Position numbers and translations under genes: made by a program
Part shown: positions 29,625-47,189 of the stretch, piece by piece
Position numbering within the stretch: position 1 is the first letter of the stretch
How the letters are laid out: each line of letters starts with the position of its first letter
Virus record (IMG/VR): IMGVR_UViG_646311924_000019
DNA: 47,189 bases
Strand: one strand, 5' to 3'
Source: a virus
Lineage: Duplodnaviria; Heunggongvirae; Uroviricota; Caudoviricetes
Notes under the pieces: generated by a model
Databases searched by the model: none
Told to the model about the DNA's origin: nothing
Seen by the model: only the letters and a program-made list of their open reading frames with translations

Positions 29625-30052
29625 AGGTGATTCTCCAGACGAAGACCCAGAACACCGGCAATCTCTTCCAGCACCTTGCGCTCTTCCGGCTCAATTTCGC
29701 CGTCTGCCTCCGCAATGGCCACCGCCACATCCAGCACATCTTCCGCTTCACGCGTATCGTGTTTCACATCCTCGATCTCACGTAACGCGGCACGACGACC
29801 AATTTTAAAATTGGTATCCAGCTGACCGATAATAGTTGCGCTAATCGCATTAATTTCCGAGGTAAACGCAGACAACGCAGGCTGATTACGTAAGACCTGT
29901 TCGATCTTCGCTTTCTCGGATGCCTCGCATTCACCATCTGCATAGGCCACCAGGTATGCAGCGTTAATCACCGCCTGTGCCAGATCGCGTTTCTCAAACT
30001 TTTTAATTTCCGCTGCCGCTCTGCGGGTTTTCTTTTTGAAGATTCCAAACAT
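29621..30052 (-). CDS. TerB-like (tellurite-resistance TerB family) protein
   Basis: 143-aa ORF with two ADGE...E...L motifs typical of TerB-family domains; ATG lies inside the IS66 target duplication. Confidence 0.65.
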   Translation of the reverse strand: MFGIFKKKTRRAAAEIKKFEKRDLAQAVINAAYLVAYADGECEASEKAKIEQVLRNQPALSAFTSEINAISATIIGQLDTNFKIGRRAALREIEDVKHDTREAEDVLDVAVAIAEADGEIEPEERKVLEEIAGVLGLRLENHL

Positions 30053-30139
30053 CGGTAAGCGTAAACTGACCGCCGTATGTAGCCATCAGACGAGAATTGG
30101 TAACTTAGACGCCCATCTGATATAGACGGACATCTAAGT

Positions 30140-30565
30140 ATGGAATTACAGGACTGGCGAAAAGAACCTCGTAAAAACTATTCGAATGAATTCAAACTTC
30201 GTATGGTGGAACTGGCATCACAACCTGGAGCTTGTGTTGCACAGATTGCACGTGAAAATGGCGTCAATGATAATGTTATTTTCAAATGGCTCAGGCTCTG
30301 GCAGAACGAAGGGCGTGTTTCGCGGCGTCTTCCGGTAACGACCTCTTCTGACACTGGCGTTGAATTATTACCTGTAGAAATAACGCCGGATGAGCAGAAA
30401 GAACCTGTGGCGGCCATTGCGCCGTCTTTATCCACTTCCACTCAGACCAGAGTCAGTGCCAGTTCCTGCAAGGTGGAATTCCGTCACGGTAACATGACGC
30501 TGGAAAATCCATCGCCAGAGCTGCTCACGGTGTTGATCCGTGAACTGACCGGGAGGGGAAGATGA
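30140..30565 (+). CDS. IS66-family accessory protein TnpA
   Basis: 141-aa ORF, first gene of the IS66 three-gene layout. Confidence 0.85.
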   Translation: MELQDWRKEPRKNYSNEFKLRMVELASQPGACVAQIARENGVNDNVIFKWLRLWQNEGRVSRRLPVTTSSDTGVELLPVEITPDEQKEPVAAIAPSLSTSTQTRVSASSCKVEFRHGNMTLENPSPELLTVLIRELTGRGR

Positions 30566-30912
30566 TCTCACTCCCATCAGGTACCCGTATCTGGCTCGTT
30601 GCCGGCGTTACCGATATGCGTAAATCCTTCAACGGACTGGGAGAACAGGTACAACATGTGCTGAATGATAATCCCTTCTCCGGTCACCTGTTTATCTTCC
30701 GTGGCCGACGGGGTGACACCGTCAAAATTCTTTGGGCTGATGCTGATGGTCTGTGCCTGTTCACCAAACGCCTGGAGGAAGGCCAGTTTATCTGGCCTGC
30801 GGTACGTGACGGCAAGGTATCCATTACCCGCTCGCAACTGGCAATGCTCCTCGATAAGCTGGACTGGCGTCAGCCAAAAACATCCAGCCGTAACTCACTG
30901 ACAATGTTGTAA
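30562..30912 (+). CDS. IS66-family protein TnpB (Orf2)
   Basis: 116-aa ORF overlapping tnpA stop. Confidence 0.85.
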   Translation: MISLPSGTRIWLVAGVTDMRKSFNGLGEQVQHVLNDNPFSGHLFIFRGRRGDTVKILWADADGLCLFTKRLEEGQFIWPAVRDGKVSITRSQLAMLLDKLDWRQPKTSSRNSLTML

Positions 30913-30942
30913 AAAACTCCTGACCGCATTATAAAAACGGTC

Positions 30943-32556
30943 ATGAGTCAGAAATACCTCATTCGCATCGCAGAGCTGGAAAGGTTGCTCTCTGAGCAGG
31001 CTGAAGCCCTCCGTCAGAAAGACCAGCAACTGAGTCTGGTTGAAGAGACGGAAGCCTTCCTGCGCTCTGCACTGACACGTGCCGAAGAAAAGATCGAAGA
31101 AGATGAACGGGAAATAGAACATCTGCGGGCTCAGATAGAAAAACTGCGCCGGATGCTGTTCGGTACCCGTTCTGAAAAACTGCGTCGTGAAGTTGAACTG
31201 GCTGAGGCTCTGCTGAAACAACGTGAACAGGACAGCGATCGTTACAGTGGGCGGGAAGACGATCCTCAGGTTCCCCGCCAGTTGCGACAGTCGCGCCATC
31301 GTCGTCCGTTACCGGCACACCTTCCCCGTGAAATACACCGCCTGGAGCCAGAAGAAAGCTGTTGCCCGGAGTGTGGCGGTGAGCTGGATTATCTGGGAGA
31401 AGTCAGCGCTGAACAGCTGGAACTGGTGAGCAGTGCCCTGAAAGTGATCCGCACAGAACGGGTAAAAAAAGCCTGTACAAAATGTGACTGTATTGTTGAA
31501 GCACCGGCGCCGTCCCGCCCGATAGAGCGTGGTATCGCGGGCCCCGGATTACTTGCCCGCGTGTTAACGGGAAAATACTGCGAACATCTGCCACTGTATC
31601 GTCAGAGTGAAATCTTTGCCCGCCAGGGTGTCGAACTGAGCCGGGCCTTACTCTCCAACTGGGTTGACGCGTGCTGCCAGTTAATGACACCGGTGAATGA
31701 TGCCCTGTACCGTTATGTGATGAATACCCGCAAGCTTCACACTGACGACACACCGGTAAAGGTACTGGCACCGGGCCTGAAAAAGACGAAAACAGGGCGC
31801 ATCTGGACGTATGTCCGGGATGATCGCAATGCGGGTTCGTCATCTCCTCCGGCGGTCTGGTTCGCGTACTCATCGAACCGGCAGGGGAAACACCCGGAGC
31901 AACACCTCCGCCCCTTCCGGGGTATCCTGCAGGCGGATGCGTTCACAGGTTATGACAGGCTGTTCAGTGCAGAACGTGAAGGTAGTGCGCTGACAGAAGT
32001 TGCGTGCTGGGCTCATGCCCGGAGAAAAATCCACGATGTATACATCAGCAGCAAAAGTGCGACGGCAGAAGAAGCCCTGAAGCGAATCAGTGAACTGTAC
32101 GCCATCGAGGATGAAATACGGGGATTACCAGAATCAGAGCGTCTTGCAGCCAGGCAGCAGCGAAGCAAAGCGTTACTGACGTCGCTGCATGAATGGATGG
32201 TGGAGAAGAATGGCACGCTGTCGAAAAAATCCAGACTGGGCGAAGCGTTCAGCTATGTACTGAATCAGTGGGACGCCCTCTGTTATTACAGTGATGACGG
32301 TCTGGCGGAGGTGGACAATAACACAGCGGAAAGAGCGCTTCGTGCAGTCTGTCTCGGAAAGAAAAATTACGTGTTCTTCGGTAGCGATCACGGCGGCGAG
32401 CGTGGAGCACTGCTGTACGGGCTGAGCGGCACCTGCCGTCTGAACGGTATCGATCCGGAAGCGTATCTGCGCCATATTCTGAGCGTACTGCCGGAATGGC
32501 CCTCCAACCGTGTTGACGAACTCCTGCCATGGAACGTAGTACTCACCAATAAATAA
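30943..32556 (+). CDS. IS66-family transposase TnpC
   Basis: 537-aa ORF with N-terminal leucine zipper, CCPECGG zinc-finger motif and DDE region. Confidence 0.9.
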   Translation: MSQKYLIRIAELERLLSEQAEALRQKDQQLSLVEETEAFLRSALTRAEEKIEEDEREIEHLRAQIEKLRRMLFGTRSEKLRREVELAEALLKQREQDSDRYSGREDDPQVPRQLRQSRHRRPLPAHLPREIHRLEPEESCCPECGGELDYLGEVSAEQLELVSSALKVIRTERVKKACTKCDCIVEAPAPSRPIERGIAGPGLLARVLTGKYCEHLPLYRQSEIFARQGVELSRALLSNWVDACCQLMTPVNDALYRYVMNTRKLHTDDTPVKVLAPGLKKTKTGRIWTYVRDDRNAGSSSPPAVWFAYSSNRQGKHPEQHLRPFRGILQADAFTGYDRLFSAEREGSALTEVACWAHARRKIHDVYISSKSATAEEALKRISELYAIEDEIRGLPESERLAARQQRSKALLTSLHEWMVEKNGTLSKKSRLGEAFSYVLNQWDALCYYSDDGLAEVDNNTAERALRAVCLGKKNYVFFGSDHGGERGALLYGLSGTCRLNGIDPEAYLRHILSVLPEWPSNRVDELLPWNVVLTNK

Positions 32557-32761
32557 GCGTCAATACGGTGCTCCGTTGACGCTTACAAACATCGTGACGT
32601 TCCTTTGGGTGGGTGAGCCAACGCCCGGGAGCGATCTGCCCACAGAGAAAGTCACACTGACCACTCCGTAAGCTCACCCCCGAAAGGCTCTGTGGTTGAT
32701 ATGCGCCGGGCGTGGCGCAGATACAAAAAAGGCCCGCCGAAGCGAGCCTGGAAAATAAGTG

Positions 32762-32838
32762 TGGCGCGTTGTAGTGGAGTCTAACCACTGACCGATTGCT
32801 TAGAAGGCAATTGCTCTGTCCGACTGAGCTAACAACGC
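32762..32838 (-). tRNA. tRNA-Arg (anticodon UCU)
   Basis: 77-nt cloverleaf folded by hand: acceptor GCGTTGT/ACAACGC, anticodon loop CTTCTAA, 3' CCA; unusual T-loop. Confidence 0.7.
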
Positions 32839-32851
32839 ATGATGCTGATAA

Positions 32852-32928
32852 TGGACCGCCATCGGGGACTTGAACCCCGCGCAGCCAGCTTCGAAGGCTG
32901 GCGCTCTGTCCCGATGAGCTAATAGCGG
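32852..32928 (-). tRNA. tRNA-Arg (anticodon UCG)
   Basis: 77-nt cloverleaf folded by hand: anticodon loop CTTCGAA, 3' CCA; acceptor stem begins with C1-G72, which is unusual. Confidence 0.6.
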
Positions 32929-32937
32929 TATGTAATA

Positions 32938-33013
32938 TGGTGGCCCTTGCTGGATTTGAACCAGCGACCTGGCGATTATGAGTCGCTCGCTCTCACCACT
33001 GAGCTAAAGGACC
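32938..33013 (-). tRNA. tRNA with CAU anticodon, Ile2-like (ileZ-type phage tRNA)
   Basis: 76 nt, closely resembles E. coli tRNA-Ile2 as recalled; anticodon loop CTCATAA, 3' CCA. Confidence 0.75.
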
Positions 33014-33041
33014 GAGCCAAAAAATAATAATCAGATGAAAA

Positions 33042-33755
33042 TCAATAATCAAGCCCTTGCCTGGATACATATCTGTCTGGCGGGAAGCCATAATAGCGGT
33101 GAAATACAGAAATAAAGTAGGACCTGCTTGAATAACCGCATTTTTCTGCTATAGCCTGTCCATATCCATGCCGGGAACATAACATATTTACAGCAACACG
33201 CATCCGCTCTTCCAGCAACAAGCGACTGAACATGCCCCCTTCATTTTTCAGTTTTGTCTTTAACAAACTCTCACTCATATGCAACTGTAGAGCAATCGCA
33301 CCAAGCGTCCAGCTTGCTGATATATCTGTCTGAATTATCGCCCTGACTTTGGCACTTATGCTGGATAAACATCCACTTAAAAACAATGACATCCGTTCAT
33401 CTGTTTCAAACAGAGACAGGCAGGCCATCATAAGAAACATATCCGTGACCTCTCCGGAAAATCCCTGGCTGGTAATTAAAGCCGCAGCCAACGCAGGATT
33501 GTTGGGTTCCAGCAACAGGTAAAGCGGAATGTCAGTCAGACGAGTCCTCGTCAGCTTATGCTGACTTTCCAGATATTGACTTACGACGGATTCGCTTATA
33601 TCGACAATTTTAACTTTGCCATAATGCATAAGGAAAAGCTCCCTGATGCATTTGGTGGCCAGAACGACTGAGCCTGGCTTAAGTGACAACGTATCCTTTT
33701 CAAGAAAAATATTAATTGGGGAGCAAACCATGATAACTGAACAGACAACAGCCAT
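33042..33755 (-). CDS. AraC/XylS-family transcriptional regulator (prophage-encoded)
   Basis: 237-aa ORF with C-terminal double helix-turn-helix typical of AraC-family proteins. Confidence 0.8.
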   Translation of the reverse strand: MAVVCSVIMVCSPINIFLEKDTLSLKPGSVVLATKCIRELFLMHYGKVKIVDISESVVSQYLESQHKLTRTRLTDIPLYLLLEPNNPALAAALITSQGFSGEVTDMFLMMACLSLFETDERMSLFLSGCLSSISAKVRAIIQTDISASWTLGAIALQLHMSESLLKTKLKNEGGMFSRLLLEERMRVAVNMLCSRHGYGQAIAEKCGYSSRSYFISVFHRYYGFPPDRYVSRQGLDY

Positions 33756-37154: not shown

Positions 37155-37310
37155 TTACTTCTCAGATTCGTAGTCTACGAAGACAGCGACCTCCGTCTGA
37201 CCGGTTCGGATTCGCACCTCGCAGAGGTCTTTCCTCGTTACCAGTGCCGTCACTATGACGGTTAAACAGATGACGATCAGGGCGATTAACATCGCCTTTT
37301 GCTGCTTCAT
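37155..37310 (-). CDS. hok: Hok/Gef-family type I toxin (HokD/RelF-like)
   Basis: 51 aa MKQQKAMLIALIVICLTVIVTALVTRKDLCEVRIRTGQTEVAVF...; the track ORF 37155-37367 is an in-frame upstream extension. Confidence 0.85.
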   Translation of the reverse strand: MKQQKAMLIALIVICLTVIVTALVTRKDLCEVRIRTGQTEVAVFVDYESEK

Positions 37311-37600
37311 AGCCTGCTTCTCCTTGCCTTTCGGCACGTAAGAGGCTAACCTACATGTGTTCAGCATGGATTGAGCCTCAGATTAATGTTAAGCGTCTTG
37401 CAGGACGCGTAATGTTAACTGGGGCTTTTCTCTATCTGCCGTTGGTGTTCATGCCCGAGGCAGATAGCCTCAAGCACCCGCTGCAATTCTACTTAACTAT
37501 CCTTTTCCCGCAAACCGTTTTTATCCCCAGCGGCAAATCGAATACTCCACCAGCGCCACCGCCATCGCAATTCCTACCGTTGTGAATGCTTCAGGCCAGG

Positions 37601-44805: not shown

Positions 44806-44863
44806 TTTCTGGTGACGTTTGGCGGTATCAGTTTTACTCCGTGGCTGCTCTGCCGCCCTTTTT
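44806..44863 (+). ncRNA. dicF: DicF small RNA
   Basis: tttctggtgacgtttggcggtatcagttttactccgtggctgctctgccgcccttttt matches the DicF sRNA as recalled (one mismatch), including its terminator. Confidence 0.8.
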
Positions 44864-45507: not shown

Positions 45508-45936
45508 ATGAGTAAAGTCTTTATTTGCGCCGCCATTCCGGACGAACAGGCAATAAAGGAAGAAGGTGCAGTCGCTGTAGCCACTGCCATTGAAGCCGGT
45601 GATGAATGTCGCGCCCGCGCAAAATTTCACTGGCAATTCCTGGAACATTATCCGGCTGCTCAGGACTGCGCTTATAAATTTATTGTCTGCGAGGATAAAC
45701 CTGGCATACCCCGCCCTGCCCTCGATTCATGGGATGCTGAATATATGCAGGAAAACCGCTGGGATGAGGAGTCTGCTTCTTTTGTCCCGGTTGAGACTGA
45801 ATCCTATCCGATGAACGTCACTTTTGACAAGCTGGCCCCTGAAGTACAGAACGCTGTCATGGTTAAGTTCGACACATGTGAAAACATCACCGTTGATATG
45901 GTTATTAGCGCACAGGAATTGTTGCAGGAAGACTGA
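45508..45936 (+). CDS. YdfE-like protein, probably truncated by the IS insertion
   Basis: 142-aa ORF with GAGG Shine-Dalgarno; its stop codon TGA is the first three bases of the IS terminal repeat. Confidence 0.6.
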   Translation: MSKVFICAAIPDEQAIKEEGAVAVATAIEAGDECRARAKFHWQFLEHYPAAQDCAYKFIVCEDKPGIPRPALDSWDAEYMQENRWDEESASFVPVETESYPMNVTFDKLAPEVQNAVMVKFDTCENITVDMVISAQELLQED

Positions 45937-45975
45937 ACCGCCCCGGGTTTCCTGGAGAGTGTTTTATCTGTGAAC

Positions 45976-46866
45976 TCAGGCTGCCAGATCATCGTTTCCG
46001 ATGGAAGCATAATAAGCTTTTTCTGCTTCTGCCGGAGGAGTATGGCCCAGCCTTCCCAGCAATCGTCGATTGTTATACCAGTCCACCCACGTTAGTGTGG
46101 CCAGTTCCACTTCTGCACGGTTTTTCCAGCTCTTACGGTGTATTACCTCCGCTTTGTAAAGACCATTGATGCTCTCAGCCATCGCGTTGTCATACGAGTC
46201 GCCTGTACTCCCTGTTGATGCCAGTAATCCGGCTTCTTTTAGTCGCTCCGTATAGGCCAGTGACACATACTGAGAGCCTTTATCGCTGTGATGGATGGTG
46301 CCAGACGGACGACGGGCCCACAACGCCTGCTCCAGCGCATCCAGCACGAATGTCGTTTCCATAGACGATGAGACCCGCCACCCCACGATGTATCCGGCAA
46401 ACACATCAATGATAAACGCCACATAGACGAAGCCCTGCCATGTGCTGACGTAAGTAAAATCAGCCACCCACAGCTGGTCAGGTCGTTCTGCCACGAACTG
46501 ACGGTTTACGCGGTCGCCTGCGGCAACGGCTTTCCGGCTGATGGTCGTACGGACCTTTTTACCCCGGAGAACACCGGCAAGTCCCATAACCGCCATGAGA
46601 CGTGCCACTGTACATCTGGCCACCCTGATTCCTTCCCGTAACAACTGACGCCAGACTTTACGCACACCGTACACCTGATGATTTTCATCGTATACGCGCT
46701 GTATCTCTCTCTTCAGCCAGTCGTCGTGCTGCGCACGGGCACTGCGTTTATCCGGATGATGTCGCTGTTGCTGACAATGGTAATACGTTGACGGGGCAAT
46801 ATGCAGTTCGCTGCATACCGGTCCGACCCCGTACTGCTCACGCAGCTTATCCAGCAGTGGCATCAT
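45976..46866 (-). CDS. IS3-family transposase OrfB (DDE catalytic domain)
   Basis: 296-aa ORF in the -1 frame relative to orfA. Confidence 0.85.
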
Positions 46867-47189
46867 TTTTTCCAGAGGCGGTCGAACTCCGCCTTCGCAA
46901 AATAAGCGGAAGCCTGGCGAAGGATATCGTTACTGCGGCGCAGTTCACGATTTTCACGTTCCAGCTCTTTCAGACGCTGACGTTCAGCGCTGGTGAGCCC
47001 ACCATCACCGCCCCCGGTATCCCGCTCATGCTGGCGAACCCAGACACGCAGAGTCTCCGGCGTACAGCCAATCTTTGGGGCAATGGAACAAATTGCCGCC
47101 CACTGTGAGTCATATTCATCCTGACTTTCCAGAACCATACGAATCGCCCGCTGACGGACTTCGGGGGAAAAACGAGTATTTTTAGTCAT
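46863..47189 (-). CDS. IS3-family transposase OrfA (HTH, leucine zipper)
   Basis: 108-aa [18 protein letters not shown]...; A6 run at the orfA/orfB overlap suggests a -1 frameshift to make OrfAB. Confidence 0.85.

What the first reader, a model, noticed from the sequence alone, without database searches (positions are those of the whole stretch)
30047..32584. IS66-family insertion lands exactly between the ribosome-binding site and the start codon of the TerB-like gene
The 8-bp target duplication AAACATCG contains the ATG (as CAT on the plus strand) of the TerB-like gene. The native upstream sequence with its AAGGAA Shine-Dalgarno is now 2.5 kb away on the far side of the IS, where it would drive only a 10-codon ORF running into the IS end. 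The cargo gene is therefore uncoupled from its original translation signals.
Basis: seen in the sequence. Interest (0 to 1): 0.55.

Follow-up and report, generated by a model that had tools for sequence, protein, structure and literature searches.

The report
IS66 element severs TerB gene's leader
A 2.5-kb IS66-family mobile element sits two bases in front of the start codon of a prophage TerB-like cargo gene in E. coli O111, cutting it off from its ribosome-binding site and from a conserved folded RNA leader that matches no Rfam 15 family; the insertion itself is an ordinary gene disruption found here only in O111 strains.

Summary
An intact 2532-bp IS66-family element (30055-32586; PGAP: ISEc47 family, about 98% identical to ISEc23-type copies) is flanked by the 8-bp duplication AAACATCG (30047-30054, 32587-32594). 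The duplication contains the ATG of the TerB-like gene (29621-30052, minus strand). Removing the IS and one repeat copy gives a sequence found uninterrupted in 755 complete E. coli genomes. The occupied junctions occur in 43-45 genomes, and every one with a stated serotype is O111. The start codon is genuine: the MFGxFKKK N-terminus is conserved down to 51% identity and there is no later in-frame ATG. The AAGGAA Shine-Dalgarno now serves only a 10-codon ORF. The IS end offers no correctly spaced SD and no promoter-like site. The most likely result is loss or strong reduction of TerB translation in a decaying prophage, which is an ordinary event. The added finding is that the lost upstream sequence is a 111-nt conserved RNA leader (32590-32700, minus strand). 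Its helices pair the SD and show covariation, including a loop-to-5'-flank pseudoknot. It matches no Rfam 15 family and also precedes unrelated phage cargo genes. Its function is unknown.

The parts
30047..30054 (.). Left copy of the 8-bp target-site duplication AAACATCG. It contains the terB start codon (CAT at 30050-30052, read as ATG on the minus strand).
   Evidence: (D6)
30055..32586 (+). IS66-family insertion sequence, 2532 bp. PGAP names it ISEc47 family, and it is 97.6-98.3% identical to copies annotated as ISEc23 family.
30055..30078 (+). Left terminal inverted repeat (GTAAGCGTAAACTGACCGCCGTAT).
   Evidence: I2: 24 nt, 83% complementary
32563..32586 (+). Right terminal inverted repeat (ATACGGTGCTCCGTTGACGCTTAC).
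   Evidence: I2
30140..30565 (+). tnpA (141 aa, HTH_Tnp_1 domain).
30562..30912 (+). tnpB (116 aa, IS66 Orf2 domain). Its start overlaps the tnpA stop in the sequence ATGA.
30943..32556 (+). tnpC, the DDE transposase (537 aa). It carries the LZ_Tnp_IS66, zf-IS66, DDE_Tnp_IS66 (profile positions 1-283 of 284) and DDE_Tnp_IS66_C domains.
32587..32594 (.). Right copy of the 8-bp target-site duplication AAACATCG.
29621..30052 (-). TerB-like (TciA-like) cargo gene, 143 aa. The ORF is intact. The protein is identical to that of the uninterrupted O26 locus, with 2 synonymous differences. Upstream of the ATG only the dinucleotide CG remains of the native sequence.
29457..29624 (-). DUF3927 / TciB-like small membrane-protein gene (55 aa, GTG start overlapping the terB stop as GTGA). 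It keeps its own GGAG sequence about 8 nt upstream of the start.
32560..32592 (-). Orphan mini-ORF created by the insertion: the native SD, ATG and TTT followed by codons read from the IS right end (MFVSVNGAPY, then a stop).
32600..32606 (-). Native Shine-Dalgarno sequence AAAGGAA. It lay 7 nt upstream of the original ATG and is now 2.5 kb from terB.
32590..32700 (-). Conserved structured 5' leader, 111 nt up to the ATG. Helix A pairs the 5' flank CCACAGAG with CTCTGTGG in the apical loop. Helix B pairs CCTTTCGGGGGTGAGC with GCTCACCCACCCAAAGG, which contains the SD. Helix C pairs GGAGTGGTC with GATCGCTCC. The leader is still intact but is no longer joined to terB.
32730..32749 (-). Terminator-like hairpin followed by a T-run, immediately after the last tRNA gene and upstream of the leader.
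32762..33013 (-). Phage tRNA cluster: a CAT-anticodon tRNA (called Ile by PGAP), Arg-TCG and Arg-TCT. It lies upstream of the leader. The only sigma-70-like site on this strand is at 33052..33024.

Best explanation
An active-looking IS66-family element transposed into a lambdoid prophage of the E. coli O111 STEC lineage and duplicated the 8 bp CGATGTTT (gene strand) that spans the terB start codon. The TerB-like cargo gene keeps its ATG and a full-length, unchanged ORF. Its 5' side is now the IS left end. The native Shine-Dalgarno sequence, the whole 111-nt structured leader that contains it, and any upstream transcription (tRNA-cluster promoter or Q-dependent late transcription) lie 2.5 kb away across an IS whose own genes run in the opposite direction. 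The expected outcome (inferred, not measured) has three parts. The upstream signals now initiate only a 10-codon peptide. Transcripts must cross 2.5 kb of untranslated antisense IS RNA to reach terB. Ribosomes find no correctly spaced SD at the terB ATG. TerB synthesis is therefore lost or strongly reduced. The downstream TciB-like gene keeps its own SD but loses its transcription and any translational coupling to terB. The event looks like neutral decay of a prophage that is already defective, inherited clonally within O111.
For: The IS anatomy and the duplication are shown. The reconstructed empty site is found uninterrupted in 755 genomes at >=80% coverage, with best matches at 99.4% identity in a single piece, and is annotated with the same TerB protein in O26. 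The occupied left junction is present in 43 complete genomes and the right junction in 45. Of the rows listed (30 of the 43, all 45), all are 100% identical except one at 99.8%, and every one with a stated serotype is O111. The start codon is confirmed by N-terminal conservation, by the full-length PHROG match and by the absence of any other in-frame ATG. In the native sequence the SD pairing AAGGA ends 7 nt before the AUG. In the IS junction the only anti-SD complementarity is an interrupted GG.GGU that ends 15 nt before the AUG. No in-frame start codon lies between the upstream stop and the ATG. The tool's scan finds no promoter-like site on the gene strand in the last 600 nt of the IS, and a more lenient scan finds only one 8-of-12 match 240 nt away. 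The prophage in strain 110512 has a truncated integrase and exonuclease and carries a further IS1203 insertion, and the window itself carries an IS1203 copy at 45934.
Against: No expression data were available. The terB ORF is still intact and its protein is unchanged in all carriers examined, which fits either a recent insertion or continued use. E. coli can initiate at SD-less AUGs at low efficiency, and the A-rich sequence after the ATG is only moderately structured (mean P(unpaired) about 0.37-0.39). The raw anti-SD duplex energy of the IS junction (-5.5 kcal/mol) is numerically similar to the native one (-5.6 kcal/mol), so the argument rests on spacing alone. The native leader pairs the SD, so its removal could in principle relieve a repression. 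Q-modified RNA polymerase could read through the IS during prophage induction.
Confidence: 0.7

Rival explanations
1. The insertion rewires terB rather than silencing it. Removing the SD-sequestering leader and placing the ATG next to the IS end would give low-level constitutive expression of TerB, driven by read-through or a cryptic outward promoter and SD-independent initiation. This could have been selected in O111.
For: The ORF is intact and the protein is identical to the uninterrupted allele, with only 2 synonymous changes. The insertion is present in every O111-named hit found. The native leader pairs the SD in helix B, which has covariation support, so the native state may be repressed.
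Against: No promoter-like hexamer pair lies near the IS left end on the gene strand and there is no SD at functional spacing. In a trap-plasmid survey, outward or hybrid promoters were reported for IS3, IS5 and IS21 members and were not listed for IS66 members (PMC3281130). Presence throughout a clone is explained equally well by descent. The prophage shows other decay.
Confidence: 0.15
2. The TerB-like gene really starts at a downstream codon, so the IS lies in its 5' UTR and only transcription is affected.
For: In-frame GTG codons exist at codons 28 and 35.
Against: Residues 1-27 (MFGxFKKK...KKFEKRDLAQA) are conserved in homologues from E. coli, Pantoea, Klebsiella, Salmonella and Erwinia phages down to 51% identity. 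Almost all homologues are 141-144 aa long. The PHROG 632 profile aligns from residue 1. The SD sits 7 nt before this ATG in all leader-bearing loci.
Confidence: 0.02
3. The arrangement is an assembly artefact, i.e. an IS collapsed or misplaced at a repeat.
For: IS copies are frequent sources of misassembly, and this IS family has a median of 3 matching places per genome.
Against: Both junctions are found in 43-45 independently assembled complete genomes; all listed rows are 100% identical except one at 99.8%. A perfect 8-bp duplication is present and the empty site can be reconstructed cleanly.
Confidence: 0.01

Closest known systems
IS66 family insertion sequences (ISEc23 / ISEc47 group of E. 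coli)
   Same: It has three ORFs, tnpA, tnpB and tnpC, with the family's Pfam domains. tnpA and tnpB overlap in ATGA. The terminal inverted repeats of about 24 bp begin with GTAAGCG. It makes an 8-bp target duplication and is 2.5 kb long. Relatives covering at least 80% of its length occur in 2487 of 5426 complete E. coli genomes.
   Different: Nothing about the element itself is unusual. Only its position is notable, 2 nt upstream of a start codon and 5 nt downstream of an SD.
Insertional inactivation or polar disruption of genes by IS elements in EHEC prophages (for example IS629/IS1203 in O157 and O111)
   Same: It is a clonally inherited IS insertion in a prophage cargo region, in a prophage that has other IS insertions and truncated genes.
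   Different: The coding sequence is untouched. The cut falls precisely between the translation-initiation signals and the ORF, so annotation pipelines still call an intact gene.
TciA/TciB-type (TerB-like protein plus small membrane protein) phage moron pair; Pfam TerB PF05099, DUF3927 PF13064; PHROG 632 and 1470
   Same: There are full-length matches to both PHROGs in the 'moron' category. The same gene pair sits downstream of Q or of tRNAs in phage Evi, phage CharmingMan and Erwinia phage ChrisDB.
   Different: No function has been shown for this pair. PADLOC gives no significant defence-system match.
SD-sequestering cis-regulatory leaders (pseudoknot riboswitches such as SAM-II or preQ1-II, the lambda cIII alternative-structure leader, phage RNase III processing hairpins)
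   Same: The terB leader pairs its SD in a long helix and has a loop-to-5'-flank pseudoknot, and all of its helices are supported by compensatory changes.
   Different: It matches none of the 4227 Rfam 15 families. Its downstream genes are unrelated to one another: TerB-like, an NMT1_3/TAXI-type binding protein and a 103-aa ORF of unknown function. That argues against a metabolite riboswitch. Its predicted stability (-36 to -48 kcal/mol) is far above that of RNA thermometers. No ligand, protein partner or processing site is known.

Membership tests
IS66 family | Three consecutive ORFs, tnpA (HTH), tnpB (IS66 Orf2) and tnpC (DDE_Tnp_IS66 with a zinc finger and leucine zipper) | tested here: met
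   Pfam: PF01527 at 46 bits, PF05717 at 125 bits, PF03050 at 325 bits (profile 1-283 of 284), plus PF13005, PF13007 and PF13817.
IS66 family | 8-bp direct target duplication | tested here: met
   AAACATCG lies at 30047-30054 and 32587-32594. A duplication of 8 bp is listed for IS66-family ISPpa5a and ISPpa7 in PMC3281130.
IS66 family | Imperfect terminal inverted repeats of about 20-30 bp starting with GTAAGCG (this hallmark is from my own knowledge of ISfinder descriptions) | tested here: met
   The 24-nt arms match at 20 of 24 positions and both begin with GTAAGCG.
IS66 family | Transposition competence | not testable with these tools
   All three ORFs are full length and both ends are present, but activity was not assayed.
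TerB family (PF05099) | Score above the Pfam gathering threshold across the domain | tested here: met
   60.2 bits against a cut-off of 24.4, covering residues 26-138.
TerB family (PF05099) | Confers tellurite, colicin or phage resistance | not testable with these tools
   Only annotation names are available.
Any described RNA family (Rfam 15), for the terB leader | Covariance-model match at or near the gathering score | tested here: not met
   No hit in 32590-32700 at E<=1 in a 3.9-kb scan. Only chance-level hits (<=14 bits against a gathering score of 62) appear in a 196-nt scan at E<=10.
Riboswitch (generic) | Conserved structured domain with covariation in a 5' UTR that controls SD access | tested here: met
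   94.4% of cells are paired. 13 pairs show compensatory change, against 4.0+-1.4 in shuffles (0 of 500 reach the observed value). Slid controls give 37-54% paired.
Riboswitch (generic) | Consistent association with genes of one pathway or ligand | tested here: not met
   The downstream genes are a TerB-like protein, an NMT1_3/TAXI-type binding protein and a 103-aa ORF of unknown function.
RNA thermometer | A weak, meltable SD-containing helix | tested here: not met
   MFE values are -36 to -48 kcal/mol, and helix B is 15-17 bp long.

The most novel reading that the evidence does not exclude
The 111-nt sequence that the IS cut away from terB would be a new class of phage cis-regulatory RNA. 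It would be a pseudoknotted, SD-sequestering 'moron leader' that gates translation of interchangeable cargo genes placed after the Q/tRNA region of lambdoid prophages of Enterobacterales, and also in an Erwinia jumbo phage. The O111 IS insertion would then be a natural allele that separates the leader from its gene.
Probability: 0.4. Interest if true: 0.55.

Novelty: new member of a known kind. Interest (0 to 1): 0.3.

Why it matters
The insertion by itself matters little. It is one more IS-mediated gene disruption in an EHEC prophage. It could serve as a marker for the O111 clone. It is also a reminder that an ORF annotated as intact can be cut off from its initiation signals. The more useful result is the leader. 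Cargo genes at the stx-equivalent position of many enterobacterial prophages share a conserved, covarying RNA structure that buries the ribosome-binding site. If this leader controls when such cargo is translated (in the lysogen or on induction), it would be a general and so far undescribed control point for phage-borne accessory genes. O111 (leader detached) and O26 or O103 (leader attached) would then form a ready-made natural comparison.

Tried and rejected
1. An alternative SD-free fold ('X') is the predicted MFE of the E. coli-type leader. Tested on the alignment it is 83.7% paired against 83.2% in shuffles, with 3 compensatory pairs against 2.8, so it has no covariation support. I rejected it as the conserved structure. 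For the window's own allele it remains nearly isoenergetic with the SD-paired fold (difference 0.3 kcal/mol).

2. RNAalifold on a plain MAFFT alignment recovered only the core of helix B, because the variable region was misaligned. I replaced it with a covariance-model alignment.

3. I checked whether the leader is one of the Pas, STnc100 or AgvB prophage sRNAs. PasD/STnc100 lies on the other side of terB (29280-29452), and PasA lies beyond the esterase gene and ends in a terminator (bioRxiv 10.64898/2026.05.13.724894). The leader is not one of them.

4. The protein-based scan of viral contigs returned only near-identical E. coli loci. A DNA pattern scan gave the needed diversity.

5. The literature search for ISEc47 returned one unrelated mention. 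The TciA/TciB search was swamped by Trypanosoma genotype names.

6. PADLOC gave no credible defence-system assignment.

7. I looked for an N-terminal extension of terB or a coupled ORF reading out of the IS. An in-frame stop lies 12 codons upstream with no start codon between it and the ATG. The only overlapping small ORF has no SD.

8. I could not determine whether any O111 genome, for example strain 11128, carries the empty site, because hit lists cannot be filtered by serotype.
Full report
OBSERVATION. The plus strand reads ...GATTCC AAACATCG | GTAAGCGTAAACTGACC ... GTTGACGCTTAC | AAACATCG TGACGTTCCTTTGGG.... The repeat finder reports terminal inverted repeats at 30055-30078 and 32563-32586 (24 nt, 83% complementary). 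It also reports a direct repeat that ends in AAACATCG on both sides (I2, D6). A script confirmed identical 8-mers at 30047-30054 and 32587-32594 and an element length of 2532 bp. Between the ends lie three plus-strand ORFs: tnpA (30140-30565), tnpB (30562-30912, overlapping tnpA in ATGA) and tnpC (30943-32556). Their Pfam matches are those of IS66 elements: HTH_Tnp_1; TnpB_IS66 at 125 bits; and DDE_Tnp_IS66 at 325 bits over profile positions 1-283 of 284, together with the zinc-finger, leucine-zipper and C-terminal domains. An 8-bp duplication is the family norm (PMC3281130). PGAP calls the transposase 'IS66-like element ISEc47 family'. Full-length relatives at 97.6-98.3% identity are labelled ISEc23 family, and copies covering at least 80% of the element occur in 2487 of 5426 complete E. 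coli genomes. The end coordinate (32584) is 2 nt short of the IS end and 10 nt short of the end of the right repeat.

THE INTERRUPTED GENE. On the minus strand, ATG at 30052-30050 opens a 143-codon ORF (29621-30052) that matches Pfam TerB (60 bits against a cut-off of 24.4). Its stop overlaps, as GTGA, the start of a 55-codon DUF3927 gene (29457-29624). PHROGs places both in the 'moron' category: phrog_632 'tellurite resistance', aligned 1-143 of 143, and phrog_1470 'TciB-like'. PADLOC gives nothing credible. The start codon is genuine. Homologues from E. coli, Salmonella, Klebsiella, Pantoea, Serratia and Erwinia/Salmonella jumbo phages are almost all 141-144 aa long and align from Met1, with MFGxFKKK conserved down to 51% identity. 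The ORF has no other in-frame ATG. The surrounding context is a lambdoid prophage late region, read on the minus strand: RusA, a Q-like gene (DUF1133), an AraC-type gene, three tRNAs, then the site discussed here, then a NanS-p-like esterase and the holin and lysis genes. This is the position that stx occupies in Stx phages.

COMPARISON WITH UNINTERRUPTED AND OCCUPIED COPIES. I joined 29300-30054 to 32595-33100, which removes the IS and one repeat copy. The resulting 1261-nt sequence aligns in a single piece over its whole length at 99.4% identity to many STEC chromosomes (O26:H11 11368, O103:H2 12009, O45:H2 and others). 755 genomes carry a match covering at least 80% of it. In O26 11368, PGAP annotates TerB as WP_000466957.1 starting at this ATG. 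The same accession is annotated in O111:H- strain 110512, which carries the IS. The window's terB differs from the O26 copy by 2 synonymous bases. A 400-nt probe across the left junction finds 43 complete genomes and a probe across the right junction finds 45. Of the rows listed (30 of the 43, all 45), all are 100% identical except one at 99.8%. Every hit whose name states a serotype is O111 (H8, NM, H- or H2). The difference of two is partly explained by strain 8234, where IS1203 has inserted into this IS66 copy. No diverged paralogous locus carries an IS at this site. The insertion therefore looks like a single event inherited within the O111 STEC clone.

WHAT THE INSERTION SEPARATES. On the gene strand the native sequence is ...CACCCACCCAAAGGAACGTCA CGATGTTT GGAATC... 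The IS duplicated CGATGTTT. The upstream copy keeps the SD (AAAGGAA, 32600-32606, 7 nt before the ATG), the ATG and TTT, and then reads into the IS right end. This gives MFVSVNGAPY-stop, at 32560-32592. The downstream copy, which belongs to terB, is preceded by ...ACGGCGGTCAGTTTACGCTTAC-CG-ATG. The only anti-SD complementarity there is an interrupted GG.GGU that ends 15 nt before the AUG. Its duplex energy (-5.5 kcal/mol) resembles the native -5.6 kcal/mol, but it lies outside the spacing at which an SD works (the spacing rule is established knowledge). An in-frame stop lies 12 codons upstream with no start codon in between, so no N-terminal fusion is possible. The consensus scan finds no promoter-like site on the gene strand in the native 170 nt upstream or in the last 600 nt of the IS. 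The nearest site upstream is at 33052..33024, before the tRNAs, and a terminator-like hairpin follows the tRNAs at 32749..32730. A more lenient scan of the IS left end found a single 8-of-12 match 240 nt away. The IS genes point away from terB, so any transcript that reaches terB must cross 2.5 kb of antisense, untranslated IS RNA. The TciB-like gene retains its own GGAG sequence 8 nt before its GTG.

THE LOST UPSTREAM SEQUENCE IS A CONSERVED STRUCTURED LEADER. I compared the sequences upstream of terB in the loci in hand. The approximately 100 nt before the ATG turned out to be better conserved than the coding sequence, even between E. coli prophages and Erwinia jumbo phage ChrisDB, where the protein is about 70% identical. 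A pattern scan of viral contigs and a protein-guided scan of genomes yielded 73 distinct extended sequences and 47 distinct leaders. They come from E. coli, Klebsiella, Pantoea, Franconibacter, Buttiauxella and Pseudescherichia prophages and from uncultured viral contigs.

The architecture, from 5' to 3', is as follows:
- A5' (CCACAGAG)
- B5' (CCTTTCGGGGGTGAGC)
- a short internal loop
- C5' (GGAGTGGTC)
- an apical loop containing A3' (CTCTGTGG)
- C3' (GATCGCTCC)
- a conserved internal loop (YGRGCRYTG)
- B3' (GCTCACCCACCCAAAGG, which contains the SD).

In 12 of 14 sequence types the predicted MFE is the B+C hairpin with the SD paired, and keeping the SD free costs 1.6-6.8 kcal/mol. In the E. 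coli O26/O111 type and one relative, a different SD-free fold is predicted to be isoenergetic, with a difference of 0.3 kcal/mol. A covariance model built on helices B and C found exactly one copy in the window (32590-32700, minus strand, 125 bits). It found the same copy in O26 and in O111 110512, and copies in 37 other loci.

On that 38-sequence alignment, the structure A+B+C is 94.4% paired. Thirteen pairs show changes on both sides, against 4.0+-1.4 in column shuffles (0 of 500 shuffles reach the observed value). Slid controls give 37-54% paired and 3-5 such pairs. The alignment was fitted to helices B and C, which favours them. Helix A was not in the model and is still 95% paired. Its variants are CCGCAGAG/CTCTGCG, CCTCAGAG/CTCTGAGG and CCGTAGAG/CTCTACGG, plus a wholly different pair, CGATA/TATCG, in a weak second copy in L204. 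Cognate 5'-flank/loop duplexes average -12.2 kcal/mol, against -8.1 kcal/mol for non-cognate combinations. The alternative SD-free fold has no covariation support.

No Rfam 15 family matches the leader. The neighbouring STnc100/PasD-type sRNA (29280-29452) and the PasA sRNA described near TerB genes are different loci. The leader is not tied to TerB. In L171 and L196 it precedes a 278-aa NMT1_3/TAXI-type binding protein followed by a small membrane protein, and in L204 a divergent copy precedes a 103-aa ORF of unknown function. TerB homologues at or below 52% identity lack it.

MECHANISM. These points are shown. The IS inserted 5 nt downstream of the SD. The gene's start codon is retained but has lost its SD, its leader and its upstream transcription signals. 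The leader is intact and now precedes a 10-codon ORF. These points are inferred. TerB translation is abolished or strongly reduced. TciB-like expression falls through loss of transcription and coupling. The event is neutral decay in a prophage that in strain 110512 has a truncated integrase and exonuclease and another IS, and that in the window carries IS1203 at 45934. I put this at 0.7. The main rival, at 0.15, is that detaching an SD-sequestering leader gives low constitutive expression. It cannot be excluded without expression data, because the ORF is intact and SD-independent initiation exists. How the leader itself works is open. A metabolite riboswitch is unlikely given the unrelated cargo genes, and a thermometer is unlikely given the stability. 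Control by a protein, by RNase III processing or by co-transcriptional folding remains possible.

COMPARISON WITH KNOWN SYSTEMS AND NOVELTY. The element meets every sequence criterion of the IS66 family. The event belongs to the well-known class of IS disruptions in EHEC prophages, and its only unusual feature is that the coding sequence is spared. It is a new member of a known kind. The insertion is visible in RefSeq annotation, although the few literature searches run here turned up no description of it. The leader RNA may be new as a family, since it has no Rfam match and I found no description of it. That claim rests on a modest number of independent lineages and on an alignment partly fitted to the model.

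VERDICT. Interest is 0.3: the insertion is ordinary, and the leader is a worthwhile lead in its own right.

Noticed in passing
window 32590-32700 (-): A 111-nt conserved 5' leader with three covarying helices. Helix B pairs the SD, and helix A is a pseudoknot between the apical loop and the 5' flank. It matches no Rfam 15 family. It is shared by prophages of several Enterobacterales genera and by Erwinia phage ChrisDB, and it also sits upstream of non-TerB cargo genes (L171, L196, L204).
   Followed up: yes
window 29280-29452 (-): An STnc100-family sRNA gene (Rfam RF02076, 104.7 bits) lies between the DUF3927 gene and the NanS-p-like esterase gene. A 2026 preprint relates this family to the PasD sRNAs of EPEC prophages.
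   Followed up: partly
window 45934-47189 (runs off the window end): An IS1203/IS629-type IS3 element, 100% identical to the IS1203 copy of strain 110512, with an ALIL frameshift pseudoknot at 46792-46908. It is inserted in the exonuclease region. Strain 110512 instead has its IS1203 copy in the lysis region (equivalent to window 26103-26109), so the window comes from a different O111 strain.
   Followed up: partly
NZ_CP077452.1 (O111:H8 strain 8234), hit H171: At this same site the IS66 copy is itself split by an IS1203 insertion, so one IS is nested in the other. This partly accounts for 43 left-junction hits against 45 right-junction hits.
   Followed up: no
window 33042-33755 (-): An AraC-family regulator gene (237 aa) lies between the Q-like antiterminator gene and the tRNA cluster. 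It is another cargo gene in the late-region leader.
   Followed up: no
window 37305-37479 (-) and 44807-44858 (+): A sok antitoxin RNA (113.5 bits; a Hok/Gef gene is annotated at the equivalent position in strain 110512) and a DicF sRNA (75 bits; dicB is annotated nearby in that strain) lie in the early region of the prophage.
   Followed up: no
window 32719-32760 (-): The terminator hairpin after tRNA-Arg(TCT) gives a weak, sub-threshold match (19.5 bits, E=0.018) to the 3' end of the STnc100 model. This suggests that the two terminators in this region are related.
   Followed up: no
L204:5097-5191 (-): A second, divergent copy of the leader (23.7 bits) occurs in the same viral contig as a canonical copy. 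Its helix A is entirely replaced (CGATA/TATCG), and it precedes a 103-aa ORF with no Pfam match.
   Followed up: partly
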